A stretch of 64,000 bases of DNA from a virus (IMGVR_UViG_2681812962_000001:1-64000), one strand, 5' to 3'; shown: positions 9,401 through 26,788, counted from the stretch's first letter. Translations and numbers: made by a program. The notes: generated by a model from the sequence alone, not told the origin.

Positions 9401-12400
9401 GTTGTTCCAATAGTTGAGTTATGGCTAATAATTATTTCCTTGTGCTCACCAGAAGCCTTTGTGGAGCTAAGCCACATATGAAGCGGAGTCCCTTTATTGC
9501 CTGCTATAGCTTTGTCTGCTTTTGCGGTAATGCTATACGTATACGTTGTATTCGGCTCTAACTCAATCCAATTTACTGTTTTAAGTCCACCATTACCTAC
9601 AACCTTAATAGTATTAAAGCTTCTGTAAGTAGCAGCTTTATCTGTACTGAGCGTTGCTCCGTTTGACATAAAAGAAGCAAAACTGTCAACGAAATTTCCT
9701 GACCCATCCATTAGGTTGGTCGCGCCAAACTCAAGATTCTCATACTCGTCTCGCGTAACCCTCGCATTAATTGCATCAGACTGAACTGCAAGTTCTGAAG
9801 AATTTAGGTTAACTTTAGTAACTAAAGCATCAAATTCTCCTTTACCAGCTTTGCCGCCTAGTAAATTATCTGCCTGTGTGCGAGTATAAACATCTGAAGA
9901 ACTAGCTTTAAGCTTTATAGCCTCTGTGTTTTGTGTAATTAGGGTATTTGCATCAGAAATTTTTAGGTTAACTTCGTATAATTTACCCTCAACTTCAGAC
10001 TTAGTATAAGTGGTGGATTTATCAGCTTTAAAAGTGATATCGTTGGCTGTTTGTGTAATGGAGGTTTCTGCTTTGGTCATTCTATTATCGAGGTTAGAAA
10101 TATCTTTCCCAGTGTCTTCAGGTGCAGCCGACCAGGAACTCACTTTCGTTCCATCTTCCAACTGTATTTTTTTGGCTTCTGCATTGCCCGTATTACCTTC
10201 CACAATTATCTTTACATATGATTGTAATTGTTCATTGCCATCGCCCTTGACTCTAAAATAGCCGGAATATTGCACCCATCCGTCTGCAAGCGGTTTTTTA
10301 GACATGCTCGTTTCACTTAAGCGTAGCGCCCAGTTGTCTGTGCCTATTTTACCAACAACTATATTCTGAAAAGGTCTCATTGTTTCGTTCGCCTTAACTT
10401 GAAGGGAAAGTGTGTAATACTTATCCTCGGATAAATACTTGCCTGCATTTGGATGTACACTAGTGTAAGTTATTTGCAAGTAATTTGGATTAGGAGTTGC
10501 CCAAGTCAACAGCTTCTCAGAATCAAGAATATAGTTACGACCACCCAATTCTAGTTTATCAAATTCTGTTTTAGTGACACGCTGCTCAATAGCATTCGAA
10601 TTAGCAATCATATTAGACTCGGCAACTTCTAGTCTACCTGTAACTATGTCTAAGGTAGTCTTGTCAGCTTTCGCTTGAATAGCATCTTTATTAAGGAAAA
10701 TTTGAGTGCCTTGGCTTGCTACAGTGTCAGACAGATTGTTGAATTCTTCCTCACTTACCTGAAGGTTTATTTGATCGGCTAGAGTGTTAATTTGAGCAGT
10801 TTGGTTTGTGAATTTTCCGTTCAGCAAGTCAAAATCTGTTTGCTCGACCTTTGATTTTATAGCAGTACTAGTCTGTTCGATATTAGACTCTGCAGTTGCT
10901 AATCTACCTGTAACTGTGTTCAGCTCTTCTTGTCCAACTTTGGATGCAATAGCGTCATTCATTACAGTAAGAGAACTCTCAGTAGTCGCTAACCGATCTC
11001 CGAGATCGTCCATCTCAATCTTCTCGGCTTTCAGAGCAATAGCTTCTTTATTAAGTTTAATCTCAGCGTTTGCCGTACTAACACTGTCTTTAACATTTTC
11101 AAGGTCAGCTTCAGTTTCTGATACTTTCAATGAGATGCTGTCTGCTTTTTGATCAATCTCGGAAATCTTAGTGGAGTGGGAGAGAACAGTGTCATCTAAT
11201 TCGTTTAATACAGTTTCTTGATTACTTACTTTTTGATTGATACCATTTACAGTTAAATCAATGCTGGACATTTTTTCGTTGTAAGATGTAGCATCAACTT
11301 TATTTCCTAAAGCAGTGTCTACTTCATTTTTCTTATACACATCTGTAGCGTTAGCTTTAAGACCGATAGAAGTAGCCTGCTGCTGGATTAAAGTTTCCTG
11401 AGAAGAAACCTCTTCGCCAAGATTGTCGAAATCCAGCTGTTTAACTCTAGAAGCTATTTCTTGAGAGTTCAGTGAAATGTCTGCCCGAGCTTTGCTCATT
11501 TTGCCATCTAGATCCGTTAAAGTCTGTGCTTGTACAGCAAAGGAGCCCTTCACCTCGTCTAATTCAGTCGATATAGTTGATAGTTGGCCGCCATGCACAG
11601 CGATAGCATCTTTGTGGGCCTCTATTTCAGCCAGAGCATTGGTTACATCTTGTCTAACTGTAGAGATGTTTGCTTTAGCAGTTTCGACTTCTTGCAAGCT
11701 TGCTTGGAGATTTCTATTCAACTCAGCTAATTTACTGTCAACAGTTGAATCATCTGCTTTTCCAATTAACGATTCAAGTATAGCGTCATACTCTTGCTGA
11801 TACTTCTCAATGTCAACTTTCTTAAGCAAGTCATCACGAATTGTATTGTACTCTTCTTCATACTGGGTTAAGTCAACCTTAGCAATCAGCTCTCCATTGA
11901 CATATTCAAGGTCAGCTTTGTCTGCAATATCTTGAACCATTCCTGCTGCTTTCTCTTCTAAAGCTGTTGCTTTATCTTCTAGTTCTTTTTGAAGATTTTG
12001 CATTTCTTCTAGCTTTTTGCCTGTGTCAATTTGAAAATCTTCTAAGTTATCTCTGATGAGTGTGTCTTCGTCAGTAATAACTTGGAGTTCATCTTTGATC
12101 TTATCAATGTTATCCTTAACATTCTCTAGGTCATCTTTGATCTCTTCAGAAGCTACGTCATATTTTGAAATATATTTTTGCTGTTCAAAGTCATAAACCT
12201 CGAATCCACCTTCAGATGTAATCTTTACATTAGCCTCACCATCTACAGGAGGGTCTTCTTCGCTAAATTTAAAGTTAATATCATTTAGCTTACCTGCAAC
12301 ATTGCCTTTCATCTCAATAGATGCTTTAGGACGATAAGGTTCTTTATTACTTATCTTTTCAGATAGGATAATGCCATTTACATTAACGTCTGTATCCACA

Positions 12401-15141: not shown

Positions 15142-18100
15142 TTAGGTTGTTCTAAGAATTAAACCTCGTCCAGTTAACTTATTATTAAATGTGTTGAACA
15201 ACTCATTCGCTCCAGAAGCATCTCCCATAAGTTTATCGATACTTATCTGAATAGGCATTGTCGTAAGAGTGGACGCATTCTGAATAGCATCCTTACGAAG
15301 AGGCATCTTTGCGTTCTGCACTTGTTGATCAGAGATACTCCGGGCTTCCTTAACAATATCTAGCACGTTTGCGGTATCATGTTGATTCAATACAATTTCT
15401 TTTTGGTGCAGCATAGCTAGCTTGCCTGTGCTCGAACCCCAAGAGCCGGTGTATCCACCTGTATCGAAGGAAGATACATTCTTACCGGTCTTATTTCCAG
15501 AAACGATTACAGTTAAAGCGTCAGATGCTTCTTTTAACCGGTCAACAAGGTTATTGGAAATACTATTACCGATTTCCTCCATATTCTTGTTAATGAAGTC
15601 TGTAAAACTAGATAGTTGCTTATTAATGTCTTTAATCTGACCATTCATGATTTTTTGTTCAATAGAATCAAAGTATCTATCATCATTAATCAAGTCATCA
15701 TATTTATCATTTATAGCTTCTGTATCCTTCTCTAACTGATCGGTTAATGCTTCCTTACGCTTCTCATCTTCTCGATCTTGTAGGAACTCATCCAGTGACT
15801 CCTGGGCTTCTTCGATTTGTTTCTTAAGGTCTTCACGCTGAGATTTAGCCCATTCTGAATCGTCAAGTGAGAGTTTACCGTACTTATCTTGGAGCTCCTG
15901 TAGCTCTTTGTTTCGCTTTTCCAGTTCTTTGTTAAATTGCTCATCATCAGCTTTAGAATCGATTTCATCTATAATCTTATTGGTGGCGTCCTCAGCATTC
16001 TTAAGCTCTATATCACGCATCTTTTCGTACATTTCTTTATAAATGTCAACTACTTCATCAGACATGTTCTGATAAATGGAGGAGATAGCCTGACCAGTGT
16101 TATAAACTTCAAGGGTTAAATCTTTTTGCTTATCTTCCCAGTTTTCAATTTCAGAAGTTATTTGATCATAGAGGTCAGGGAAGCCTTTAACTGTCTTACG
16201 CTGTTCTTTGAGCTGTTTAATATAATCCTTCACAGCTTTTTGCTGTTGCTGTAGGTTTTTATATTGATCGCTGTAGTATTTGACCTGATCTTTTTCTTCT
16301 GGGGTCATTGATATTTTGTCGCTTAGATTCTCAAACTTGTCAGTAATCTTCTCATAGGCATCAGCAATTTTCTTGAGCTTTTCTTCTACTTTTGAGGACA
16401 TTATAGATTCTTCAATTTGGAATAGCTGCTGCTTGTAATCCTCTAGAGTAATCTGAGCATTATTTAGCTCTTGAGAAAGCTGAACTCTTTGAGCAGCTGT
16501 TAAAGCTTTGTTAGTTTTAATTTCTCGCTGGATGAAACGAATTTTCTCTTCTTGAATACTTTTTTGCCTCTTGGTGTCGTTTAATTGCTTAGAAGTGATA
16601 CTTCGCCATTTTTCAGAGGTTTCATCATACTTTTGTAATTCAGTATCATACTTTGCTAAATTAACATCTAAGTCAGCTATGCGCTTGTCATAACCTGCGA
16701 GGTATGATTCTACAATGTCATAATTCAACTGCTCTATCTGCTCATCAATGCCGGCGATTTCTGATTGTAAATTCACTACTTCGGAACGAGCATTTGCAAC
16801 ATTCTGCTGATTCTGAGCGACAGTAGAAGAGTAGTCCGTTAGTGCATCAAGGTAAGTATTAGGATTAATCGTATTTCCGCTCTGATCCTCAATTTGCAAA
16901 TGAAGATGAGCACCAGTTGATTGACCTGTATTTCCAACTTTACCTAACTGTTGACCTGCAGCAACTCTATCACCGGCTTTTACATCCAAGCCTTTTTGCA
17001 TGTGCATATACTTTGCAACAGTGCCGTCATCTTGTTGAACAACAACCCAGTATCCAGCTGATTTTGAATAAGCAGCTGTAATGACTTTACCGTTTTGCAG
17101 AGACTTAACCGGATCACCTTGTTTACCATTGGCCAAGTCAATTCCTTTATGCTTCGTGGACCCACGCTTTTCCATGTAATCAGAAGTTTGACGGAAATTG
17201 TTTTTATAGTAGTCAGCTACAGATTTTGCAGCGTCTGTTGTCTGCGTTACAACAGACCCAGCATACTTGGAGTAGTTTGCTAAAACTCTATCAGCATAGT
17301 TTTTAGGTTCTTTCCATTGACCCTGAGCAGAAGACAGTATCTTCGAAACGTTACCAGCACCAGCGTTATAGGCGTAAAGTGCTTTCTGTATATCCCCACC
17401 GAATTTCTCAAGCTGCTGAGCTATGTACTTAGTACCACCCATAATGTTTTGGTATGGGTCATAAGCGTTTTTTACACCCAAATCGCTCGCAGTACCTGGC
17501 ATGAGTTGCATAAGCCCCATTGCACCAGCACCAGATCGAGCGTTAGTGTTGAAATTGGACTCCTGTTTAATTATTGCTGCGATTAGGTTGGCATCGACTC
17601 CATATTTTTGAGCAGCTTGGTTAATGTAGTCGCCGTATTTGCCACCTCCGACATTAGAGGAAAGAGGGGAGTATCCTAAGCCAGAGGAGGTTGATCCACC
17701 TGAGGTAGTAGTGACAATACCTGTGGGAGCAATGTAACCAGATTTTATCTGTCTCTCTAAAGACTTGGATTGCTCTTGCAAGATTTGCTTTTTTTCTTTG
17801 AGCATCTTGATCTCGCTTTTAACGGCGTCACGATACTTTTTAGAGTGACCAGGATAGTCATTGAGGAGGTTGTTTTGCTTTTCTATCTCTAGATTAAGCT
17901 TCTCTAAATCCAACTTGTATTTTTCAGCTACATATTTGGATGACTCAATTTCTTCTTGCTTATCCTTCTCGGATTCTGAAACATTATCGTTAGATTCAGA
18001 TAACTTCTCATTGGACGTACCAACTTCATTCAATGCTGTAGATGAAGCTTCAACCATACTTTTCATTTTCTCGATGCCATCAAGATTCTCAACAATACCA

Positions 18101-20379
18101 TCTAATTCATTACGCTGTTCCGACAAAGCTTGAATTTTAGCCATGTCTTGGCCATTCATGGTTCCACCTGAAGCGATAGTGTCACCAATCTCGTCGCCAG
18201 CTTCAGTTAGGGCTTTTCTGGCATCCGCAACGGATTTGATTGCCTCAATCTGTAAGCCGTAGTTATTAAGGATCTTAACTGTGGCGTTTGCTTGATTGAT
18301 CAAATCTTGTTGAACAGCATTTTGCATGTCAGTGTAAGATTTGACTTTGGCATCTCTAAGTTTAATGATAGCATCTTGGTTAACGGAGATTACACCGTTT
18401 TGGATTGAGATAGCTCCTGCGAGATCTTCTTCATTTTGCATGAGCGTAACTGCTTCTGCTGCAGATAGCTGTTTCCCTTCGGCTAACTTTTTAAGTAGGT
18501 TATTAAGAGGGGAGACTTCATCAGTTAATGCATTATAAGCGTCACCTAGAAGTAGTTCAGTAGCTTTCTGATGCTGCTGAGTATCAACTAACTCTTGCGC
18601 TATGTCTAATAACGCTTGGTAGTTTCCTCTTGCATTCTGTATGGCCTCGTCCATTGAATCTACTGCATCAGCAGAACCCTCGAAGGCCTCGGCCATCGCG
18701 TCGCCTTCTTCTGAATAGGTCTGTGCAGCTGCTTGGGATTCAATTGTTTGTTTCTCTAGGGAACCACTAAGAATACCGACAACAGTTTCTGCGTCAGAAA
18801 GACCAACCTTTAAGGAAGTAAGAGAGGCAACTTGTTCATTATAAGCGTTAGTGCCTTCTTTTACTTTCTGACCAGAATCTGCAATCTTCTCGACAGCATC
18901 AAGCTGATCGACACTAAAACCGTCTAGGTTAAAGCCATCACCTAGATCTTTCTTAAGAGCAGAGACACGTTTAGCCAGCTCTTTGATTTGTTCAGTTGTT
19001 GTGTAACCTTTTTCTATAGATTGGTCACTAATCCATTGGATATCAACAGCAGTAAGACCTTTCATATCACCAATTACAGCAGCAATTGCCTCAGTTGATT
19101 CGACTGTTTTCTTGTTTATCTCATCAAACTTTTCACTGATATCTGCGCTTAATTCATCAGCTTTCTTTTGTGCAGATTCTGCTTGAACACCTAGAGTAAC
19201 ATCTCCAGATTTGTTTATTGTGTTCATAGAGTTTGCATAATTAAGCTCTTTTTCTTGTTCCTTTTGTAGTTTCTCTAGCTCCTCACGAGCTTTTTTGATG
19301 CTATCCGCATTTTGAGAAAGGGTGTTTGGAGCTTGTAGAAGAGTCTTCTGTTTTTCGAGCTCGGCTTCTCGTTCGAGGAGCTTAATACGTTCCTCAAGGA
19401 TGCCGGAGTTATAGAGTATCGCATTTCCTTTTTCATCTTCTCCAGCTTTTACAGAAGGGAGGAGGGCAGCGAGCTCATTTTGAATTCGAAGATATTCTTC
19501 TTCTTGCTCGTTGTTTCGATCAATAGAGGAAAGTTTAGTGTAGGATTCAACAAGTTCATCTACCTTGTCCTTATCAGAAGAGAGAGATTCAAGAGAGGTT
19601 TCTTGGTTCTTAGTGAATTCTTCTTGCTTAGCTCGGGCATCAGCATATGCCGATGTTAATTTTTCTACTGCTAAGCCTATACCAGCAAAAACCAATCCGA
19701 CACCAGTTGTAGCAAGTAAACCACGCATTGCAGTTTTAAAGACATTTGTAGCAACTGTTGCTCTAGAAGCACCTGCTTCTATATTAGCAAACTGTCTATT
19801 AGCGTCAGATAGAGAGTCTGCACCGAATATCATGGCCGTGGAAAGAATGCGGAAGTTTTTGCTTAACAAAAAGACAGCTACGGATGCTGCAGCAAAGAGG
19901 GGAGGGAGCATACCAACATTTTCAGCGAAACCGGCTAATTTTTCTAATGCACCTCCTGCTATTTCAGTGAATGCTATTATACCGTCAGATAAAAATGCCT
20001 CTCCAAGAACTAGGGAAAGTTCTGTCCATCGATTCTGTAGTATGTTTAGCCTTGCTTGCAATGAATCTGCGTATTTCTCCTGCTCACGAGCTGCGCTGCC
20101 GAAGCTACCCATTGAAACGGAAGAAGCTTCTTGCGCGGTGGAAAATCCCTCCATGAGCGCAAGAAATCGCGACAAATGCTCCCGTCCAGCCAGCGTTACA
20201 GCTGTATTCTGCTGCTGCTCTGAACTTAAGCTGTTCCACTGAGATGCTAGTTGATCAAGTATGTCAGACACAGGTCTTACATCGCCGGTCACATCTTTTA
20301 CAGCGATACCTAATGAAGTCAGCTGCTCTTCAGCTGCTCCCATAGTTGTGATACGGGAGAGTATTGTTTTCAAACTGTT
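15142..20379 (-). CDS. yomI: Tape measure protein exon 2 (contains SLT lytic transglycosylase and M23 peptidase domains)
   Basis: Begins NSLKTILSRI, continuing the TMP motif; IIKQESNFN..GAMGLMQLM (SLT); HKGIDLA..HLH (M23); spliced product 2296 aa. Confidence 0.9.
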   Translation of the reverse strand, partial: NSLKTILSRITTMGAAEEQLTSLGIAVKDVTGDVRPVSDILDQLASQWNSLSSEQQQNTAVTLAGREHLSRFLALMEGFSTAQEASSVSMGSFGSAAREQEKYADSLQARLNILQNRWTELSLVLGEAFLSDGIIAFTEIAGGALEKLAGFAENVGMLPPLFAAASVAVFLLSKNFRILSTAMIFGADSLSDANRQFANIEAGASRATVATNVFKTAMRGLLATTGVGLVFAGIGLAVEKLTSAYADARAKQEEFTKNQETSLESLSSDKDKVDELVESYTKLSSIDRNNEQEEEYLRIQNELAALLPSVKAGEDEKGNAILYNSGILEERIKLLEREAELEKQKTLLQAPNTLSQNADSIKKAREELEKLQKEQEKELNYANSMNTINKSGDVTLGVQAESAQKKADELSADISEKFDEINKKTVESTEAIAAVIGDMKGLTAVDIQWISDQSIEKGYTTTEQIKELAKRVSALKKDLGDGFNLDGFSVDQLDAVEKIADSGQKVKEGTNAYNEQVASLTSLKVGLSDAETVVGILSGSLEKQTIESQAAAQTYSEEGDAMAEAFEGSADAVDSMDEAIQNARGNYQALLDIAQELVDTQQHQKATELLLGDAYNALTDEVSPLNNLLKKLAEGKQLSAAEAVTLMQNEEDLAGAISIQNGVISVNQDAIIKLRDAKVKSYTDMQNAVQQDLINQANATVKILNNYGLQIEAIKSVADARKALTEAGDEIGDTIASGGTMNGQDMAKIQALSEQRNELDGIVENLDGIEKMKSMVEASSTALNEVGTSNEKLSESNDNVSESEKDKQEEIESSKYVAEKYKLDLEKLNLEIEKQNNLLNDYPGHSKKYRDAVKSEIKMLKEKKQILQEQSKSLERQIKSGYIAPTGIVTTTSGGSTSSGLGYSPLSSNVGGGKYGDYINQAAQKYGVDANLIAAIIKQESNFNTNARSGAGAMGLMQLMPGTASDLGVKNAYDPYQNIMGGTKYIAQQLEKFGGDIQKALYAYNAGAGNVSKILSSAQGQWKEPKNYADRVLANYSKYAGSVVTQTTDAAKSVADYYKNNFRQTSDYMEKRGSTKHKGIDLANGKQGDPVKSLQNGKVITAAYSKSAGYWVVVQQDDGTVAKYMHMQKGLDVKAGDRVAAGQQLGKVGNTGQSTGAHLHLQIEDQSGNTINPNTYLDALTDYSSTVAQNQQNVANARSEVVNLQSEIAGIDEQIEQLNYDIVESYLAGYDKRIADLDVNLAKYDTELQKYDETSEKWRSITSKQLNDTKRQKSIQEEKIRFIQREIKTNKALTAAQRVQLSQELNNAQITLEDYKQQLFQIEESIMSSKVEEKLKKIADAYEKITDKFENLSDKISMTPEEKDQVKYYSDQYKNLQQQQKAVKDYIKQLKEQRKTVKGFPDLYDQITSEIENWEDKQKDLTLEVYNTGQAISSIYQNMSDEVVDIYKEMYEKMRDIELKNAEDATNKIIDEIDSKADDEQFNKELEKRNKELQELQDKYGKLSLDDSEWAKSQREDLKKQIEEAQESLDEFLQDREDEKRKEALTDQLEKDTEAINDKYDDLINDDRYFDSIEQKIMNGQIKDINKQLSSFTDFINKNMEEIGNSISNNLVDRLKEASDALTVIVSGNKTGKNVSSFDTGGYTGSWGSSTGKLAMLHQKEIVLNQHDTANVLDIVKEARSISDQQVQNAKMPLRKDAIQNASTLTTMPIQISIDKLMGDASGANELFNTFNNKLTGRGLILRTT

Positions 20380-20610
20380 CGGTCCTGTTACTTTCACCTA
20401 GCAGGCTACTGACCATAAACATATGGCGGTGAAGCACTTCAACTTCACTCTCTATGTTTCCATAGATGCTCAGACTGTCGCTTCAAGTGTCATACACTTG
20501 TCTTCCCACTCAGTCGTTCAGGCTGCCATTACGCTTGCCCCTTGTCGCCCTCGTCTTAACGTTAGGGGTTCCAAGTCAATCAGGGAGGATTTTACATCAG
20601 CAACTAGTTT
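20380..20610 (-). ncRNA. Group I self-splicing intron (231 nt, ORF-less) in the tape measure gene
   Basis: 5' exon ends in U; P1 CAUCGGU/GCUGAUG with U.G at the splice site; P10 AAACU(A)GUU pairs with 3' exon AACAGUUU; P7 A(C)GACUG/CAGUCU; P8 CAAGUGU/ACACUUG; P9 UCUAUG-GAAA-CAUAGA; terminal G; removal restores RESGNIIG-NSLKT. Confidence 0.92.
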
Positions 20611-22263
20611 ACCGATGATGTTTCCAGATTCACGTGTAGATGCTCCAATAGCTGTTGTATAGCCTAACAATTCATCTAAATCTGCACCAAATACGGAGGC
20701 TGTAGATCCAGCACGTCTTATGGATTGAGATAGGTCTAAAGAACTTACTGAGAACTGATTATCAACTTCGTTAATTCGATCAATTATAGATTCACTGTCC
20801 TTAGCTGCAATATTAAAATTGGTCATTGCGGCAGTGATAGACTTAACTGAATCTTCAGGAGAAAGTTCCCCTATATTCTGAAGAATCTGTGCTGACTCGG
20901 CTAAATCAGCCAATTGATCTCCTTCATAGCCTAATCTCCCAAATTCCCCCATCATTGTGAGTACATCTGGAAGAGTGTTTCCTAATTGTATACTTAAATC
21001 AATGGACTCGCTCAGTAAAGTGTTGAATTGGGAATCCGGTATATCCATTACACGTCTAATGTTGGTCATTAATGTGTCGACTTCTACAATTTGTTCTGTG
21101 ATATTACGAAAAGCGTTTAACGATCCATATATTGAAGTCATTGCTACGCCCCAAGTGACGGTGCGGGCTAGGGCAGTCTGTAATTCTTGACCAAACGTAT
21201 TTACATGTGAAGCAGCAGTATTAACGTTTGATGATATCTCCTTGAATTCCATATTAAGAGATTTCATTTGCTGGCTAACATTAGGGGTCTTAGCTGAAAG
21301 CGAGTTAACGGAGTTAAGGTAGTTGTTTAATCCAGCTTGGCCGTCAGGTCCTATAGCGGAGCTAAAACGTCTCTCAAGATTCTGTACATTTACTGCAGCT
21401 TGACGTTTGTAGAGCTCTAGCTGTTTCTCTAGCTCACGAGTACGTTGTCTAGCTTTTGAATCGTCATCTAGTTGAGAGATGAGCTGTCGAACTATTTCTA
21501 TATCCTGTAGAGTATCAGCAATATTAATTGCATTAGACAATTTAGACAGAGTTGTAGCGGATACTTCGCCTTGCTGTTTTAATGACTTAAGTTGAGTCTC
21601 TAGCTGCTGAACAGCTTTTCTGCGCTTGTCTATATTATCAGTGGTACGGATAGAGGAGATATTTCCTTCGCGATCAGTGTTATATGTAATATCTTCATAG
21701 TTTAATCTGTTTTTTTGTTGACCGCCAAGATAATTTCCAGTGGCATCACGTTTTTCTGTTTTAGAGAGTGTTTGACCGTATTTAGTAATTTGGTCTTGAG
21801 CCACTTTCGCTGCCTGAGCTTGTTTTTGAAGAGCTTGCGTCTGCTCATTAACAAATCTGGTGGACTTTTGAAGAATTTCTCCATTTTGTTTGTGCTGCAT
21901 GCTCGTTTTCTCAGTCGTTCCGTCCAATTTCTTTGTGACTGTGATTTGCTCTTCAATTACTTTATTAAGATCTTTGGCACTCTTAACATGGCCGTCTATG
22001 GATTTTGTAAATCCGTTTAGCACTTTCTCTACTTGCTTATCCATAATTACGTCTAACTTGATTGGCTTGAGTTGTTTCTGAAAGGAGGCAATTTGCTTAT
22101 TAATTTCGGAAATAGAGGATTTGGAGATATCAATTTCAGATTTAATATTCAGGGCTTTAGCTTTACCTTGGAGGAGCTTAATATCTTGATTAAGCTGGTT
22201 AGTAGCTTGTCTACTGGTATCAGCAGAAGGGGAGAGTATTATTTTCAAATCTTCACTCAACAT
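20611..22263 (-). CDS. yomI: Tape measure protein exon 1 (551 codons)
   Basis: MLSEDLKIILSPSADTS resembles the YomI N-terminus; TP901-type TMP core ending ..TRESGNIIG. Confidence 0.9.
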
Positions 22264-22273
22264 GTATCACATC
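22231..22273 (-). repeat. Direct repeat copy 1 (TMP RBS/start region)
   Basis: 38/43 identical to 24944-24986. Confidence 0.8.
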
Positions 22274-22301
22274 CTTTCAGTATTAGCATAGATAATTTAT
22301 T

Positions 22302-22342
22302 ACAAAACAAAAGCACATTCATTAGGGGATGTGCTTTTGTTT
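22302..22342. terminator. Bidirectional intrinsic terminator after the nuclease gene
   Basis: ACAAAAGCACAT..ATGTGCTTTTGT inverted repeat. Confidence 0.7.
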
Positions 22343-22420
22343 GCTAAAGTTTCAAATATAATTTCCAATTACTTAAGCTTTTTTAATACTGCTTGAACAA
22401 TATCGCTATTGAGCTCCATA

Positions 22421-24655
22421 TCATATGATACGGGGTGAGGGAATGATGCTATGCTTTTTCAATTTTGTTTTTAGTCCTAACATATCTTTCTTCATATCCT
22501 CTGGGTACAAATCTACAAGTGGAATATTGTTTTCTCTTAAGATTCTAATTTTCTTTTCCATTCTTCTACGATAGGATTCTTTGTCTGACATTCCAAAGTA
22601 TTCGACTGGTATTCCATTAATGACCCAATCAGTTTTCATCATGCCCAATCTAGGATCATCGACGATTTCTTTATAAAGCGTCGCTTTCTGATATTCTATG
22701 CCCTCATCTATAAGATAGTTTGTAATAGCTAGTTCCTTCTTTGAATCGCAAATATCGCCATTTTTACTAATGCAAGAGAAAGACTTGCCATACAAAGATT
22801 GATTAGGCGTTAAACCAGCTTCCATACATGCCGCTGAATAAGAATCAAAGTATCTAAAGTATGACATTGCTCCACAAGACATATGTTGATTAACTTCATC
22901 AATACTTGGGGTTTTTTCAAGTTCTTTTGATAGTTCTACCAAATTTTCAATAAGCTCTAATTTTATTTCTGATTTGAGTTTATCTGAATATACTTCTTTG
23001 TTCTTTTTTAATTCTAGTGTGTCATTAGCCATACTGTTAATTGAGATAGCAGATCTTTCAGGAAACAGCTTTAATAATTCAGTTATCGTACTCGTTGGAT
23101 ACACTTCTTTAAGTGTAATAACATCCTGATTAGACCAGGGTATCCTATTATTTATACCAAGTTTAGATGCTTTGGTGTTTATAGAGTAGGGAGATCTGTG
23201 AGGAAGTTTTTCAATAACAGCCCTAGTGCCACCTGAAATATATAATTGCCTTAGCACCTCGAGTTCATGTGTTGTCCAATGGTAATTTTCCCTCCTCAAA
23301 CCTAGTTGAGAGGCTTTATGCAAGATAGTATCCTTACTATGGGAGAGATAGTCTAGCAAATCTTCCCAATCCAATTGACTGTAGTTAACCTTTAAGAAAT
23401 TAATTTCCTCTTGAGTCCAGTCGTTATGCTTGTAGCATCCTAGCATCCTTAATCTATTTTGAACGGCAGAAGTACTTGTAAAATTGTATTTAGACCTAAT
23501 TTCTTCATATGGGAGAGCGTTTTCGAAGTCATTAATTAATTCTTGGTCTGTATACTGTACAAACCTGTTCTCTTGTCCTTTAGGTAGTGGTAACTCAAGC
23601 AGCTTGCACAAGTTCGCTAAATTGCCAAAATGTTTTTTGATCGCTCGATATTCATAATCTTTAAAGTCTGACATGGCTAAGGGTCTTTGCAATCGTAAGT
23701 AATTATCATAAACGATTTGTTTTATTTCGTTCGTATTTAAATTATCATGTCCATACCTATACTCGTAAGAAACAGTAAGACCTAGTGAGTTAGCTTTGTG
23801 GCGTATGGTACTTTCAGACCTAGGTATCATTAATTTCTCATTAATAAGTTTGATATCGTTAAAGGCATAGTACTTTCTTAAAACATTCTCGTCATGTTTG
23901 TACCAGCCGTTAGCAGATAATAAATTAAGCTCTTTTAGGAAATTGTCGTAAGAGCCGCATAATCTTATAAAAGGAGCAACTGTGGGTAGTAATGGATCAT
24001 TTTTTAGGTCTGAAGCAGTGGGGTACCTTTTGTTGATAACTAAGTAATCCCAAAATATACGTTCAAGAGTTTCACGGTCATATGTAATCTTCGTATATTG
24101 TTCCATGTTTTTATCGCAAGTACACTTTGGGTTGTATCTTAAATTTCTGTGCATTTTCTCTATGATGCTGCCGCAGGTGCAGATAATTACTAGAGGTGTG
24201 CTAACTAAATCAACTATCATACTTTTATTTAGTACCTTGAATCCTTTTTTACTCAATTCATTAACAGCTTGAGAAATCGGATTTCTTAGCTTCTTTTGTT
24301 TTCCACAGTCTCGACAGTAGGGACGATTAGGCAACTTGTTAATTGACTGAAAACATATTTTTCCACATGAACATTGAAATTTCATTTTAGTCTTACTATC
24401 CACATATTTGTCTTCAAGTAAACTAAGATCATAGGTTGCAAATCTTTGTTTAGCGACCGATATATCCATTTTATTGTGAGCTTTTAATGGTTTGGTTGTT
24501 TGTCTTCTGTCTCTGCGCAAACCTAATGTATGTGCTTTTTTAGCTATTGAACTCCAATTTCTATGTACAGATAAAGAAGAAATTATCTCCTCTTGACTTG
24601 CGCAACAAAATTTCTCTTGTAAAATTGCTATATCTGATTCATTCCATGCAGCCAG
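22421..24655 (-). CDS. Free-standing homing-endonuclease-like protein: Myb/SANT-like repeats, Zn ribbons, endonuclease-associated repeats, C-terminal PD-(D/E)XK/Vsr-like nuclease; probable CTG start
   Basis: Five W(T/S)xxExxxL..R(S)xxxIxxKAxxLGL-type repeats; CxCG ribbons; PTxxD..FGSY-type repeats; C-terminal SKKE..TDW..VEYFG; RBS AGGGAG is 9 nt from CTG but 0 nt from the ORF-track TTG. Confidence 0.7.
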   Translation of the reverse strand: MAAWNESDIAILQEKFCCASQEEIISSLSVHRNWSSIAKKAHTLGLRRDRRQTTKPLKAHNKMDISVAKQRFATYDLSLLEDKYVDSKTKMKFQCSCGKICFQSINKLPNRPYCRDCGKQKKLRNPISQAVNELSKKGFKVLNKSMIVDLVSTPLVIICTCGSIIEKMHRNLRYNPKCTCDKNMEQYTKITYDRETLERIFWDYLVINKRYPTASDLKNDPLLPTVAPFIRLCGSYDNFLKELNLLSANGWYKHDENVLRKYYAFNDIKLINEKLMIPRSESTIRHKANSLGLTVSYEYRYGHDNLNTNEIKQIVYDNYLRLQRPLAMSDFKDYEYRAIKKHFGNLANLCKLLELPLPKGQENRFVQYTDQELINDFENALPYEEIRSKYNFTSTSAVQNRLRMLGCYKHNDWTQEEINFLKVNYSQLDWEDLLDYLSHSKDTILHKASQLGLRRENYHWTTHELEVLRQLYISGGTRAVIEKLPHRSPYSINTKASKLGINNRIPWSNQDVITLKEVYPTSTITELLKLFPERSAISINSMANDTLELKKNKEVYSDKLKSEIKLELIENLVELSKELEKTPSIDEVNQHMSCGAMSYFRYFDSYSAACMEAGLTPNQSLYGKSFSCISKNGDICDSKKELAITNYLIDEGIEYQKATLYKEIVDDPRLGMMKTDWVINGIPVEYFGMSDKESYRRRMEKKIRILRENNIPLVDLYPEDMKKDMLGLKTKLKKHSIIPSPRII

Positions 24656-24943
24656 TTTTAACAACTCCCTAATATTGTTCCACTTATATTAATGCCAGGA
24701 AGGAGGTAGGGAATTTCCTATTTAGATTAAGTAGTTAATTCAATCCAATCCTTTCCCTATAAATCAGTATAATTATGATTTATTTATTTGCAAAAGAAAA
24801 ATGAGAATATTATCCATATTTAAATCTACGCCTTAACTTATATGAGATGTAGAACTTAAACACGGATTATTTCAAAAGAGAAGAGGGATTTTACATTAGA
24901 ACATATTAACTATAATAATATTATCGTTAATGTCATCAAAGGA

Positions 24944-24986
24944 GGAGAGTATATTTTTTAAATCTTCACTCAAAATTTATCACATC
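24944..24986 (-). repeat. Direct repeat copy 2 (relic TMP start, opens 25-codon ORF MSEDLKNILS..)
   Basis: 38/43 identical to 22231-22273. Confidence 0.8.
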
Positions 24987-25009
24987 GAAACAAACAAAAA
25001 TACAACCAC

Positions 25010-25651
25010 TTAAGATGCGGTTGTGTTTTTGTTCATCGCAATTTTAAATATACCTTCCCATTGTTCAAGTTTTTTTAGCACTGCTTGAACGACTTCGCCA
25101 TTCTTTGGGAACCCTTTTTCTTGTGGAGATCCAGGTATGAGGGAGGGGAGGAATTCTACATATAGAACAGGCTTTTCGACGTCTGCGGTATTAATTTTTA
25201 GAGTTGCTTTTTTAATTAGCTCGTCATGCCTTCGATCAGAGGATAGACCGCCTATAATGGCACCAACACCTCCAGCAATTACCCCACCAATTAGAGCTCC
25301 ACCAATTTGCTGAGTACGGGAGACTTTTGATACTGTTTCACCATTTAATTCAAATGAAGCATCCAAAACTTTGTCAGCCGAAAAGGAATACTCTTGAATA
25401 GTGCTACTGGAAGTTCTCTGGTAATACTTAAATAAGTTCACATCTTTATTGTAAGCAATTTTAGTTTGACCATCTAAGCCAGGGAAAAAGAGATCGCCAT
25501 GAAACTCTTTATCATATTCAGCCATATGATTTAACACTGCATCTTGTTCTTCACTTTTTCTTTTAGAGTGTTTTCTCATTGCTGCAACAATAGCCAGCCA
25601 GATACCAAATATTATTACCCACCACAGTATGGCTATAATAAACACCACCAT
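25010..25651 (-). CDS. yomJ: Membrane-anchored YomJ-like protein (putative immunity/exclusion moron) with own promoter
   Basis: N-terminal TM; SKVS..GGVIAGGVGAIIGGLS..TLKI..KPVLYVEFLP resembles SPbeta YomJ; upstream TGnTATAAT. Confidence 0.7.
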   Translation of the reverse strand: MVVFIIAILWWVIIFGIWLAIVAAMRKHSKRKSEEQDAVLNHMAEYDKEFHGDLFFPGLDGQTKIAYNKDVNLFKYYQRTSSSTIQEYSFSADKVLDASFELNGETVSKVSRTQQIGGALIGGVIAGGVGAIIGGLSSDRRHDELIKKATLKINTADVEKPVLYVEFLPSLIPGSPQEKGFPKNGEVVQAVLKKLEQWEGIFKIAMNKNTTAS

Positions 25652-25774: not shown

Positions 25775-26788
25775 TTAAAACATATCAGCAACATCATCAT
25801 CATCGTCATTTAAATTATAGAAGTTATTAGTGGTACTAGAATCTTTGTGACCAAGTAATTTCTGTGCTTTGGTTAACTTTCCGTCAGAATCCTTAATTAG
25901 ATGGGAAGATCGACTAGCTCGGACGATATGAGGGTTTACGCGTCTTCCAATAATGTCCGAGATGATTTCTTTAAACCAGTAGTTAACTGCAGAAGCATGT
26001 AATGGCTGGTATTCGTTATTTTGTTTGGACACAAATATGAATTCGCAATTATCTTCACCTCTATGTTCAAGCCACAACTTTATATGTCCCATAGCTTCAT
26101 CTGAGAGGAGGAGAGGTCTAAGTAATCCTTGCTCACCTTTGCCTTTAGTTCTGACATCATGGGTTCTGTACGCGCCAACGCTATTACCAACTTTGTCTTT
26201 GAGGGGCTCATATGAGATAATTTCCTTCTTCAACTGAACGAACTCTGATCGTCTTGATCCTGTATCATATAGCACGCTGAAAGCAGCTAAAATTTGATAT
26301 TGCTCAGCTTCTAATAAAGCATCTTTTACATTTTGGATTTCTACTTTTGTGAGAGGAACTTTACTGTAGACTTTATTAGGGGAGGGGTTAGGCACACCTT
26401 CTATGAAGTTTCTAAATGTGAGGAAGTTGTCGTCATCCTCGTAAAAGTTTAAGAGGTATTTATTCATAGAAGAAACGGCAGAACGCTTAAACTTAATTCC
26501 ATTGGAAGACATTCCTCTACGGACTAAGTAGTTCTGATATCTCATGAATTCTTTCTTTTTAATCTTGTATACTTCTTTGCCACCTAAAGCTTCTTGAACC
26601 CAACTGTAGAAAATTCTTAGTCCAGATTTATATTGGTCTAAAGTTTTAGGGGAGAGATGTACTGATTCGTAAAGATATTCTTCAACTAATTCACGGTTAA
26701 AAGGATTGACCCTCGACCACTGTTCGTCTGTAACTTCATCTATTTTCTTCGCTCTTTCACGAAGCATATTTTTCTTAATGTCAGCCAA
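25775..26788 (-). CDS. yomM: Tyrosine recombinase (XerD/integrase family) inside the tail operon
   Basis: Complete catalytic set: TGSRRSE, TKGK, PHIVR, LLGH, NFY. Confidence 0.88.
   Translation of the reverse strand: MADIKKNMLRERAKKIDEVTDEQWSRVNPFNRELVEEYLYESVHLSPKTLDQYKSGLRIFYSWVQEALGGKEVYKIKKKEFMRYQNYLVRRGMSSNGIKFKRSAVSSMNKYLLNFYEDDDNFLTFRNFIEGVPNPSPNKVYSKVPLTKVEIQNVKDALLEAEQYQILAAFSVLYDTGSRRSEFVQLKKEIISYEPLKDKVGNSVGAYRTHDVRTKGKGEQGLLRPLLLSDEAMGHIKLWLEHRGEDNCEFIFVSKQNNEYQPLHASAVNYWFKEIISDIIGRRVNPHIVRASRSSHLIKDSDGKLTKAQKLLGHKDSSTTNNFYNLNDDDDDVADMF

What the first reader, a model, noticed from the sequence alone, without database searches (positions are those of the whole stretch)
20380..24986. 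Candidate collaborative-homing pair: free-standing modular nuclease beside the intron-bearing TMP gene
Seen: the intron encodes no endonuclease, but the gene directly upstream of TMP (22421-24655) encodes a C-terminal PD-(D/E)XK/Vsr-like nuclease behind a long DNA-binding array; it ends ~1.8 kb from the intron insertion site. Known: in cyanophage S-PM2 psbA and T7-like DNA polymerase genes, ORF-less introns are mobilised by adjacent free-standing endonucleases that cut the intronless allele. Inference: this nuclease targets the intronless GGT-AAC (G-N) site of TMP in co-infecting SPbeta-like phages. The intron would give self-immunity, and cutting a rival's tail gene could also act as phage-versus-phage interference. 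I know of no description of such a pair for a TMP gene or for this nuclease architecture.
Basis: partly seen in the sequence, partly recalled or inferred. Interest (0 to 1): 0.8.

Follow-up and report, generated by a model that had tools for sequence, protein, structure and literature searches.

The report
Free-standing nuclease beside intron-split tail gene
A prophage tail tape-measure gene is split by a small self-splicing-type intron, and the gene just upstream encodes a nuclease from a family that elsewhere lives inside tape-measure introns, so the two probably travel together, but whether the nuclease cuts exactly at the intron site is not shown.

Summary
The tape-measure (TMP) gene is split between GGT (20611) and AAC (20379) by a 231-nt ORF-less group I intron. 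Rfam misses it, but 97% of cells pair in a 20-sequence alignment and 33 of 52 pairs show compensatory changes. The 747-aa gene upstream (22421-24664, minus strand) is free-standing. It has Myb-like repeats, HNH_repeat modules and a C-terminal PD-(D/E)XK/Vsr-like domain.

New here: the nuclease family is tied to TMP genes. 16 of 17 viral loci and 28 of 32 metagenome loci that carry it show TMP homology. Shorter members (about 320-450 aa) sit inside TMP introns of the same intron family, about 70 codons downstream of the window's intron. Longer members sit directly upstream of TMP in six other phages.

The pairing is loose. Of 5 phages with the same-site intron, 2 carry the nuclease. Of 7 free-standing nucleases, 2 have that intron, 4 have some ORF-less intron in the TMP core, and 3 have none there.

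Best reading (0.6): a TMP-directed free-standing homing endonuclease that mobilises the intron in trans. TMP introns and collaborative homing are both already in print, so this is a new variant of a known kind.

The parts
20380..20610 (-). ORF-less group I intron (231 nt) in the TMP gene, inserted between GGT (Gly) and AAC (Asn), here called site B
   Evidence: Sequence. P1 and the terminal G. Model R1 scores 185.8 bits (E 1.2e-61). Structure counts. It is the only R1 hit in the whole 3.39-Mb genome.
20611..22263 (-). TMP exon 1 (551 codons)
   Evidence: Pfam PhageMin_Tail positions 4-135 at residues 424-551. 46% identity to the G246 TMP.
15142..20379 (-). TMP exon 2 (1745 codons plus stop), with SLT and M23 peptidase domains
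   Evidence: Pfam PhageMin_Tail positions 136-201, SLT (E 3.8e-32) and Peptidase_M23 (E 9.1e-26).
22421..24664 (-). Free-standing homing-endonuclease-like gene, 747 aa
   Evidence: Full-length homologues sit upstream of TMP in L010 (34% identity over 691 aa, E 3e-118) and in G249 (35% identity, E 2.3e-127).
22442..22795 (-). C-terminal PD-(D/E)XK/Vsr-like catalytic domain (about residues 624-741). Invariant residues: S641, E644, Y664, D679, W680, E688, G691, Y698, K705
   Evidence: Invariant columns in 40 sequences. Model pLDDT 92.6. Foldseek matches. No Pfam family.
22811..22957 (-). HNH_repeat (PF18780), residues 570-618
   Evidence: E 1.9e-14.
23009..23419 (-). Three tandem Myb/SANT-like repeats (residues 416-552). 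Two more lie at residues 7-49 and 254-296
   Evidence: Family profile against c-Myb R2R3, E 1e-6. Repeat pattern of my own. phrog_323 hit at residues 409-521.
24116..24373 (-). Two CxC...CxxC zinc-ribbon-like motifs (residues 98-120 and 162-183)
   Evidence: Pattern. phrog_559 'HNH endonuclease' non-catalytic region, residues 71-186.
24665..25009 (-). 345-nt spacer upstream of the nuclease gene, with a terminator-like hairpin (25024-25002) and a promoter-like site (24936-24909)
   Evidence: Site counts are not above the shuffles, so this is weak.
22264..22420 (-). 157-nt spacer between the nuclease gene and TMP. By eye it holds a hairpin followed by a T-run (about 22345-22310) just before the TMP ribosome-binding site
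   Evidence: Sequence read. The scan did not list it.
25010..25651 (-). 213-aa membrane-type gene. In relatives it directly abuts TMP

Best explanation
The 747-aa gene is a free-standing homing endonuclease from a family specialised on tape-measure genes. Its array of DNA-binding modules (Myb-like repeats, HNH_repeats, zinc-ribbon-like motifs) places a Vsr-like PD-(D/E)XK domain on DNA.

Most likely it cuts or nicks the conserved PhageMin_Tail-coding stretch of TMP in related co-infecting phages or prophages that lack it. Repair from the nuclease-bearing genome then copies the nuclease gene and the neighbouring TMP DNA. The ORF-less intron 1.8 kb away is carried along in trans. The intron itself only needs to splice so that a 2296-aa TMP can be made.

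Shown: the intron, the architecture, the free-standing position, the family's tie to TMP, and the conserved catalytic-type residues.
Inferred: nuclease activity, a target inside TMP, and mobilisation of the intron.
For: (1) The family is linked to TMP. Of 17 viral loci holding the nuclease domain (L010-L026), 16 show TMP homology around it; L011 does not. Near-duplicate loci reduce this to about 12 of 13 distinct. Of 32 metagenome loci, 28 do, and many of these repeat the viral ones.

(2) In L013-L015 and L017-L026 the nuclease ORF lies between TMP exons, and a hit of intron model R1 begins within about 70 nt of the ORF's end. These members are therefore encoded within introns of the same family as the window's intron.

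(3) Free-standing members sit directly upstream of TMP in six further phages: L010, G249, G135, L180, L183 and L184. This holds even though the TMPs are only 28-46% identical.

(4) Relatives lack the gene at this spot (G246, G247, G232). Only 2 of 246 genomes of the bacterial family hold the domain at E<=1e-5. That is the sporadic pattern of a mobile gene.

(5) E644, D679, E688 and K705 are invariant across 40 homologues and present here, so the enzyme looks intact.

(6) Precedent. T4 MobE mobilises the neighbouring nrdB intron in trans without cutting at the intron site. F-CphI and the T7-like cases cut at it (PMC2790892 and PMC3984707, passages).
Against: There is no cleavage or inheritance data, and no RNA run holds the locus (which is not evidence either way).

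The pairing with introns is loose. L180, L183 and L184 carry free-standing members beside a TMP core that is uninterrupted at sites A, B and C and has no R1 hit. G232, G246 (a provirus rated 100% complete) and G247 carry the same-site intron without the nuclease upstream.

The 5' end of the nuclease gene is about 4 kb from the intron site. Co-conversion in T4 reaches at most about 2 kb (PMC2790892, passage).

Trees of the nuclease domain are unresolved, so no target site can be assigned by kinship.

The fold matches have E of 0.01 or above.
Confidence: 0.6

Rival explanations
1. Strict collaborative homing. The nuclease recognises the uninterrupted GGT-AAC junction of TMP, and the intron protects its own genome by splitting that site.
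For: The G|N intron is the only intron in this TMP and the only R1 hit in the genome, so it is the one obvious way this TMP differs from a target allele. G249 repeats the arrangement: a 778-aa homologue upstream of TMP plus a same-site intron scoring 192 bits. The exon flanks of the four other carriers are similar around TCGGT|AA (G249 sequence).
Against: L010 and G135 carry free-standing homologues while their G|N site is uninterrupted. L180, L183 and L184 have no intron in the core. Three of 5 same-site intron carriers lack the nuclease. No family member was found inside a G|N intron, and the ORF in L014's G|N intron belongs to another family. With a cut at G|N, the nuclease gene would need about 4 kb of co-conversion to profit.
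Confidence: 0.2
2. The target is the 'LAGR-YQLSR-F' region about 70 codons downstream (site C), as for the intron-encoded relatives. Self-immunity comes from a sequence variant rather than from the intron, and the G|N intron is co-converted passively (MobE-type trans homing; also nested in the best explanation).
For: The intron-encoded family members cluster at this site. L010, G249 and G232 have ORF-less introns there. The window reads AGREHLSRF where the relatives of its lineage that I read show YQLSRF: MaeS, L010, G246, G247, G232, L198 and L211.
Against: The sample is small and not corrected for phylogeny. Other lineages read VRQRENF there, so the variation may be ordinary drift. There is no evidence for the specificity of this enzyme, which is only 32-35% identical to the other eight proteins compared, 23% for G135 and 39% for P0003.
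Confidence: 0.2
3. Independent neighbours. The nuclease homes to its own insertion point (the junction between the 213-aa gene and TMP, or the TMP 5' end) by intronless homing. The intron is an unrelated, now immobile passenger of a gene that is an intron hot-spot.
For: The conserved feature across 7 phages is the position upstream of TMP, not any particular intron. TMP cores collect introns without this nuclease: G232 has four ORF-less insertions within about 150 codons. ORF-less TMP introns shared between different prophages were reported in 2008 (PMC2504315, section 8). Free-standing endonucleases usually cut close to their own gene (PMC3984707, passages).
Against: It does not explain why the same nuclease family also sits inside TMP introns 1.5-2 kb away. 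That is most simply explained by shared recognition of TMP core DNA. The TMP 5' region and the upstream gene are poorly conserved (29% identity), so they make poor homing targets.
Confidence: 0.25
4. The gene is a decaying or domesticated relic (a regulator or maturase-like helper, for instance) with no nuclease activity.
For: The start context is odd: TTG directly after AGGGAG. This is the most divergent of the long forms, and the N-terminus differs from the homologues.
Against: The ORF is intact at 747 aa. All nine invariant residues of the catalytic domain are kept, and the model is confident.
Confidence: 0.07

Closest known systems
Collaborative homing pairs: F-CphI with the psbA intron of cyanophage S-PM2, and the HNH gene next to the DNA polymerase intron in T3/T7-like phages (as summarised in PMC3984707 and PMC10448857, passages read)
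   Same: [quoted passage not shown]
   Different: In those cases cleavage at the intron insertion site was shown; here nothing is shown. The nuclease here belongs to another family (Myb-like repeats + HNH_repeat + Vsr-like PD-(D/E)XK). It lies upstream, 1.8 kb from the site, and homologues occur beside TMP genes with no intron at that site.
[quoted passage not shown]
   Same: A free-standing endonuclease next to an intron-bearing gene. The intron has no working nuclease of its own and can be inherited through co-conversion.
   Different: MobE is an HNH enzyme that nicks away from the intron site. Function is demonstrated there and only inferred here.
Group I introns in TMP genes of Bacillus cereus-group prophages, TMP-IVS1 to IVS3 (Tourasse and Kolsto 2008, PMC2504315, section 8 read)
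   Same: Several insertion sites in the conserved part of TMP. The introns are mostly ORF-less, related introns adapt to different sites through P1, and the same intron occurs in unrelated prophages.
   Different: That study reports one HNH gene in a TMP intron and no free-standing partner. It calls the spread of the immobile TMP introns 'puzzling'. I did not test whether those introns belong to family R1.
I-Bth0305I / EDxHD homing endonucleases (PMC3239194, abstract and passages; PDB 3r3p)
   Same: A modular phage homing endonuclease with N-terminal DNA-binding modules and a C-terminal Vsr-like domain. It is a top structural match (prob 0.99, TM 0.70 on the target).
   Different: The E-D-x-H-D signature is absent: no His is invariant among 40 family members. 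The DNA-binding modules differ (Myb-like and HNH_repeat here, NUMOD/HTH there).
ICP1 'HEG islands': a HEG-bearing TMP intron, and a terminase intron with an adjacent T5orf172 HEG (Barth et al. 2023, PMC10448857, passages)
   Same: TMP as a frequent HEG and intron target; an ORF-less intron beside a free-standing HEG. The alternative origin proposed there, HEG turnover that leaves an empty intron, applies here too.
   Different: Different phages, nuclease families and intron family. That work concerns the terminase pair, not TMP.

Membership tests
Group I intron | 5' exon ends in U, paired with G of the internal guide (P1); intron ends in G | tested here: met
   Exon ...CAUCGGU pairs with intron GCUGAUG, and the last intron base at 20380 is G. 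The same holds for all aligned family members.
Group I intron | Conserved core helices P3-P9, including the P3/P7 pseudoknot, supported by covariation | tested here: met
   97.0% of 1030 cells pair, against 38-47% in slid controls. 33 of 52 pairs show compensatory changes. P3 has 7 of 7 pairs covarying, and one P7 pair takes three pair types.
Group I intron | Match to the curated Rfam group I model | tested here: not met
   No hit at gathering score in the window, and none at E<=10 in 19800-21200. I read this as a gap in the model's reach, given the covariation.
Group I intron | Self-splicing, with ligated exons in RNA | not testable with these tools
   No RNA run holds the locus. Splicing would restore the frame (phase 0) and the contiguous Pfam domain, 135|136.
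PD-(D/E)XK / Vsr-like nuclease superfamily | Restriction-endonuclease-like alpha/beta fold | tested here: met
   Model pLDDT 92.6. The best PDB matches are TnsA, I-Bth0305I, BstEII, Vsr, Hjc and 3hrl, with probabilities up to 0.99, but E from 0.0097 to 0.9 and none at or below 0.001.
PD-(D/E)XK / Vsr-like nuclease superfamily | Conserved acidic and Lys catalytic residues | tested here: inconclusive
   E644, D679, E688 and K705 are invariant in 40 sequences. The classical (D/E)xK reads E-Y-F here, so the Lys would come from the next helix. Their placement in the active site was not inspected. No Pfam family matches the domain.
EDxHD homing endonucleases | E-D-x-H-D signature with a catalytic His (PMC3239194, passages) | tested here: not met
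   No invariant or nearly invariant His among the 40 aligned sequences. There is no sequence match to 3r3p in the PDB sequence searches.
Free-standing homing endonuclease gene | An intergenic gene present in some related genomes and absent in others at the same position | tested here: met
   It lies between the 213-aa gene and TMP here. It is absent at that spot in G246, G247 and G232 and present there in L010, G249, G135, L180, L183 and L184.
Collaborative homing pair | ORF-less intron with a free-standing endonuclease gene adjacent to the host gene | tested here: met
   The distance from stop codon to 5' splice site is 1810 nt.
Collaborative homing pair | [quoted passage not shown] | not testable with these tools
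   This needs a cleavage assay. No computation here bears on the cut site.
Collaborative homing pair | Intron and endonuclease are inherited or distributed together | tested here: inconclusive
   2 of 5 same-site intron carriers have the nuclease (window and G249, against G232, G246 and G247). 2 of 7 free-standing nucleases have the same-site intron. 4 of 7 have some ORF-less intron in the TMP core. The sample is small and related.

The most novel reading that the evidence does not exclude
A dedicated 'tape-measure' homing-endonuclease family exists in two states: embedded in TMP introns, and free-standing just upstream of TMP. The free-standing enzymes would act as trans-mobilisers for whole clusters of ORF-less introns in the TMP core. 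That would explain the old puzzle of how 'immobile' TMP introns spread between unrelated prophages. It would also catch the Bonocora-Shub route (free-standing nuclease, then collaboration, then intron-encoded nuclease) at several stages within one gene, with exclusion of rival phages' tail genes as a by-product.
Probability: 0.3. Interest if true: 0.65.

Novelty: new variant of a known kind. Interest (0 to 1): 0.5.

Why it matters
Group I introns without their own nuclease are common in phage structural genes, and how they spread is an open question. Tourasse and Kolsto raised it explicitly for TMP introns in 2008.

This locus, with its six sister loci and the intron-encoded relatives, offers one nuclease family and one intron family in the same gene, in every arrangement: free-standing nuclease alone, free-standing nuclease with empty introns, and nuclease inside the intron. 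[quoted passage not shown]

The work also flags an uncharacterised catalytic domain (no Pfam family) as a candidate new branch of PD-(D/E)XK homing endonucleases. And it identifies a widespread small group I intron family that Rfam did not detect in this window.

Tried and rejected
- Rfam gave no group I hit for the window. The intron call rests on my own alignment and model instead.
- The word-based protein search found only the query itself at full length. The exhaustive HMMER search then found 1342 relatives of the C-terminal module at E<=0.001, so the 'singleton' result was an artefact of the first tool.
- The PDB sequence search with the whole protein gave nothing meaningful.
- Direct BLASTP between the MaeS intron ORF and the 747-aa protein showed no homology in the nuclease region. 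They belong to different families.
- Trees of the nuclease domain (34 inner branches, 5 well supported, bootstrap not settled) and of the long forms do not place the window's enzyme with any site-specific group. I draw no target inference from them.
- Sequencing runs: no RNA holder is listed. There is one DNA run that may be the source, and one run with a small share.
- Earlier findings of this scan: none for this genome.
- Promoter and terminator scan: site counts are not above the shuffles.
- GC content: the nuclease gene is at 0.33-0.36 and TMP at 0.38-0.45. The difference is too mild to argue for recent import.
- First attempt at search for related loci with the 40-sequence alignment failed for lack of a conserved stretch. 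A 9-sequence alignment worked.
- Complex prediction, the second structure job and a full-length fold were not used. The DNA-binding array rests on sequence evidence only.
- Supplementary files of the papers were not seen. Those of PMC3239194 (list of Vsr-like endonucleases) and PMC10448857 (HEG neighbourhood tables) could already contain members of this family.

Full report
**1. What is in the window**

All relevant genes are on the minus strand. Two long ORFs, 20518-22263 and 15142-20397, are the two halves of one tape-measure (TMP) gene.
- Pfam PhageMin_Tail matches profile positions 4-135 at the end of the first ORF and 136-201 at the start of the second.
- The second half also carries SLT and M23 domains, as in SPbeta YomI-type TMPs.
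- blastn alignments to 20 Bacillus phage records of the SPbeta/phi3T type, annotated yomI, tape measure or lytic transglycosylase where they carry annotation, run at 66.5-67.6% identity. They stop at window 20609, two bases past the exon end.
- Reading the DNA, exon 1 ends ...ATC ATC GGT at 20611 and exon 2 starts AAC AGT TTG at 20379. The insert is 20380-20610, 231 nt, in phase 0.

**2. The insert is a group I intron, although Rfam does not see it**

Rfam 15 gives no hit at gathering score in the window and no group I hit at E<=10 around the site. The evidence for an intron is as follows.
- The exon's last U pairs with a G in a P1 helix (CAUCGGU/GCUGAUG), GUU before that guide can pair with the first exon-2 bases AAC (P10), and the last intron base is G.
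- The 5' 100 nt match sequences that split a ribonucleotide reductase gene in Roseobacter phage CRP-118 and a P22-type coat gene in a Caudoviricetes genome.
- I aligned 20 compact members (A4). These are 19 of the 26 non-identical compact members listed, the other 7 left out as near-copies, plus the window.
- The structure (RNAalifold consensus plus P7 added as a pseudoknot) pairs 97.0% of 1030 cells, against 38-47% when partners are slid. 33 of 52 pairs change on both sides, and 0 of 500 shuffles reach the covariation score.
- Model R1 built from this alignment scores the window's intron at 185.8 bits. That is its only hit in the window and in the whole 3.39-Mb genome.
- Splicing itself could not be checked, because no RNA run holds the locus.

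**3. The upstream gene**

ORF 22421-24664 (747 aa, TTG start) ends 1810 nt from the 5' splice site.
- Pfam sees HNH_repeat ('homing endonuclease associated repeat') at 570-618 and a weak copy at 213-247.
- PHROGs match phrog_22655 (unknown function) on the C-terminus and non-catalytic parts of 'HNH endonuclease' families.
- A profile of the family hits the c-Myb R2R3 DNA-binding repeats (E 1e-6). I count five such W-x-x-E/D...LGL repeats and two CxC...CxxC motifs with a pattern of my own.
- The C-terminal 191 aa have 1342 relatives at E<=0.001 among 1.84 billion representatives.
- In 40 of them, S641, E644, Y664, D679, W680, E688, G691, Y698 and K705 (full-protein numbering) are invariant.
- The AlphaFold model (pLDDT 92.6) resembles TnsA, the catalytic domain of the homing endonuclease I-Bth0305I, Vsr, Hjc and a DUF559-like protein. 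Probabilities reach 0.99, but E-values are 0.01 or worse.

So 'Vsr-like PD-(D/E)XK behind a DNA-binding array' is right at fold level. The domain has no Pfam family, and it lacks the invariant His of the EDxHD signature (definition from PMC3239194 passages).

**4. It is free-standing**

The 213-aa gene upstream aligns end to end with its G246 counterpart. TMP aligns from residue 2. In G246 these two genes overlap with nothing between them. G247 and G232 also lack the nuclease there. The word-based search found no full-length relative, but that was a sensitivity limit, as section 5 shows.

**5. The main new result: the nuclease family is a tape-measure family**

*Intron-encoded members.*
- A scan of viral contigs with the C-terminal module gave 20 loci. 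17 of them hold the nuclease domain.
- tblastn with the window's TMP shows TMP homology around the nuclease in 16 of those 17. L011 is the exception. L015/L017, L019/L023, L021/L022 and L012/L016 are near-duplicates.
- In L013-L015 and L017-L026 the nuclease ORF (about 320-450 aa) lies between TMP exons. An R1 hit starts right after the ORF. These are therefore intron-encoded nucleases in introns of the same family as the window's.
- They sit mostly after '...LAG' or '...LAGR' (site C, exon-2 residues about 66-72). In L019 a second copy sits at 'NEV|D' (site A).
- A metagenome scan gave 32 more loci, many the same contigs as the viral set. 28 of them have TMP segments.

*Free-standing members directly upstream of TMP.*
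- L010: 761 aa, 34% identity over 691 aa, E 3e-118.
- G249: 778 aa, 35% identity, E 2.3e-127.
- G135: 573 aa, distant.
- L180: 539 aa. L183: 661 aa, with L182 similar. L184: 371 aa plus a second copy of 534 aa.

**6. How tight is the nuclease-intron pairing?**

*Same-site (G|N) R1 introns.* These occur in G232, G246, G247 and G249 besides the window. L042, L059, L113 and L118 are the same places and are counted once. The nuclease is upstream of TMP in 2 of these 5 (window and G249). G246 is a 128-kb provirus rated 100% complete, and it has no match to the module at all.

*The 7 free-standing nucleases.*

| Phage | Introns in TMP |
|---|---|
| Window | G\|N |
| G249 | G\|N, plus two introns of another type |
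| L010 | ORF-less introns at two other sites; G\|N intact |
| G135 | ORF-less introns at two other sites; G\|N intact |
| L180, L183, L184 | None: contiguous TMP core, no R1 hit |

*Other TMPs.*
- The only G|N-site intron with an ORF (L014) carries a Zn-finger/DUF559-like protein. It resembles the ORF in the site-A intron of Microcystis phage MaeS and is not of this family.
- G232's TMP has four ORF-less insertions within about 150 codons and no nuclease nearby.

**7. Reading**

The shared feature of the family is TMP DNA. The simplest account of one family being found both inside TMP-core introns and 1.5-2 kb upstream of that core is that its members recognise the conserved TMP core. The window's enzyme would then be a free-standing homing endonuclease that attacks TMP of related phages, and the intron would be mobilised in trans. 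This is the logic of collaborative homing and of MobE-type trans homing (PMC3984707 and PMC2790892, passages). I give it 0.6.

Within that reading the cut site is open.
Against it stand L010, G135, L180, L183 and L184, and the 4-kb distance to the far end of the nuclease gene. I give it about 0.2.
- Site C, where the intron-encoded relatives live, is an equal candidate at about 0.2. The window there reads AGREHLSRF, where the relatives of its lineage that I read show YQLSRF: MaeS, L010, G246, G247, G232, L198 and L211. That could be a resistance polymorphism, but the sample is small and uncorrected for relatedness.
- Independent neighbours, with intronless homing at the gene's own insertion point, remain at 0.25.
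- A dead relic gets 0.07.

**8. Comparison with what is known**

- TMP introns at three sites in Bacillus prophages, mostly without ORFs, were described in 2008. That paper called their spread puzzling (PMC2504315, section 8 read).
- TMP as a frequent HEG and intron target, and an ORF-less terminase intron beside a free-standing HEG, were described for ICP1. HEG turnover was offered there as an alternative origin (PMC10448857, passages).
- In 5 searches of the open-access library I found no description of a free-standing nuclease paired with an ORF-less TMP intron, or of this nuclease architecture. Subscription literature and supplements were not seen.

**9. Verdict**

This is a new variant of a known kind. 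Its value lies in the series of arrangements, which makes the pathway testable. It does not lie in a demonstrated new mechanism.

Noticed in passing
window 20380-20610; loci L034-L172: A widespread family of compact (about 225-260 nt) group I introns in phage and prophage genes. A 26-base core pattern finds 19 genome-contig loci and at least 120 viral loci. Rfam 15 gave no hit for the window's copy at either threshold. Other members were not tested against Rfam.
   Followed up: partly
L033 (G232) about 10569-12015, minus strand: One TMP gene carries four ORF-less insertions within about 150 codons: two weak R1 hits (17.9 and 12.8 bits), the G|N intron (164.6 bits), and one at site C (70.3 bits).
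   Followed up: partly
L008 (Microcystis phage MaeS, MT362618.1) about 2610-3928: There is an unannotated group I intron in the TMP gene at 'NEV|D'. It carries the annotated 'hypothetical' ORF 2949-3746, a Zn-finger plus DUF559/Vsr-like protein. The record annotates the TMP pieces as separate or missing CDSs.
   Followed up: partly
L007 (Roseobacter phage CRP-118) 3998-about 4160; L009 (Caudoviricetes ctn9Y15) 3996-4217: A ribonucleotide reductase gene and a P22-type coat gene are annotated as two CDSs each. Each is split by a member of the same intron family.
   Followed up: partly
L019 / L023 3967-7720: One TMP gene holds two intron-encoded nucleases of the same family (sites A and C). It also has a 302-nt insertion at about the G|N site that R1 does not recognise.
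   Followed up: no
window 25775-26788 (-): A tyrosine-integrase-like gene (phrog_1, E 2.9e-40) sits inside the tail module two genes upstream of TMP. ORFs of similar size lie at the same relative place in G232 (347 aa, with a recombinase-like C-terminal motif by eye), G246, G247, L010 and G135, and an integrase-like ORF in L011 was confirmed by PHROG. The others were not tested.
   Followed up: partly
window 20146-20172 (exon 2 codons about 70-78): The TMP here reads AGREHLSRF, where the relatives of its lineage that I read show YQLSRF. The spot is where intron-encoded relatives of the nuclease insert. It may be a target-site variant or plain drift.
   Followed up: partly
window 22310-22345 (-): By eye there is a hairpin followed by a T-run between the nuclease stop and the TMP ribosome-binding site. 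If it terminates transcription, it would sit in the middle of the tail operon. The consensus scan did not list it.
   Followed up: no
L031 (G232:C103:55367-56743, minus strand): A distant relative of the nuclease domain (459-aa ORF, profile E 4.8e-10) lies about 11 kb downstream of the G232 TMP. It is not in an R1 intron. Its context was not examined.
   Followed up: no
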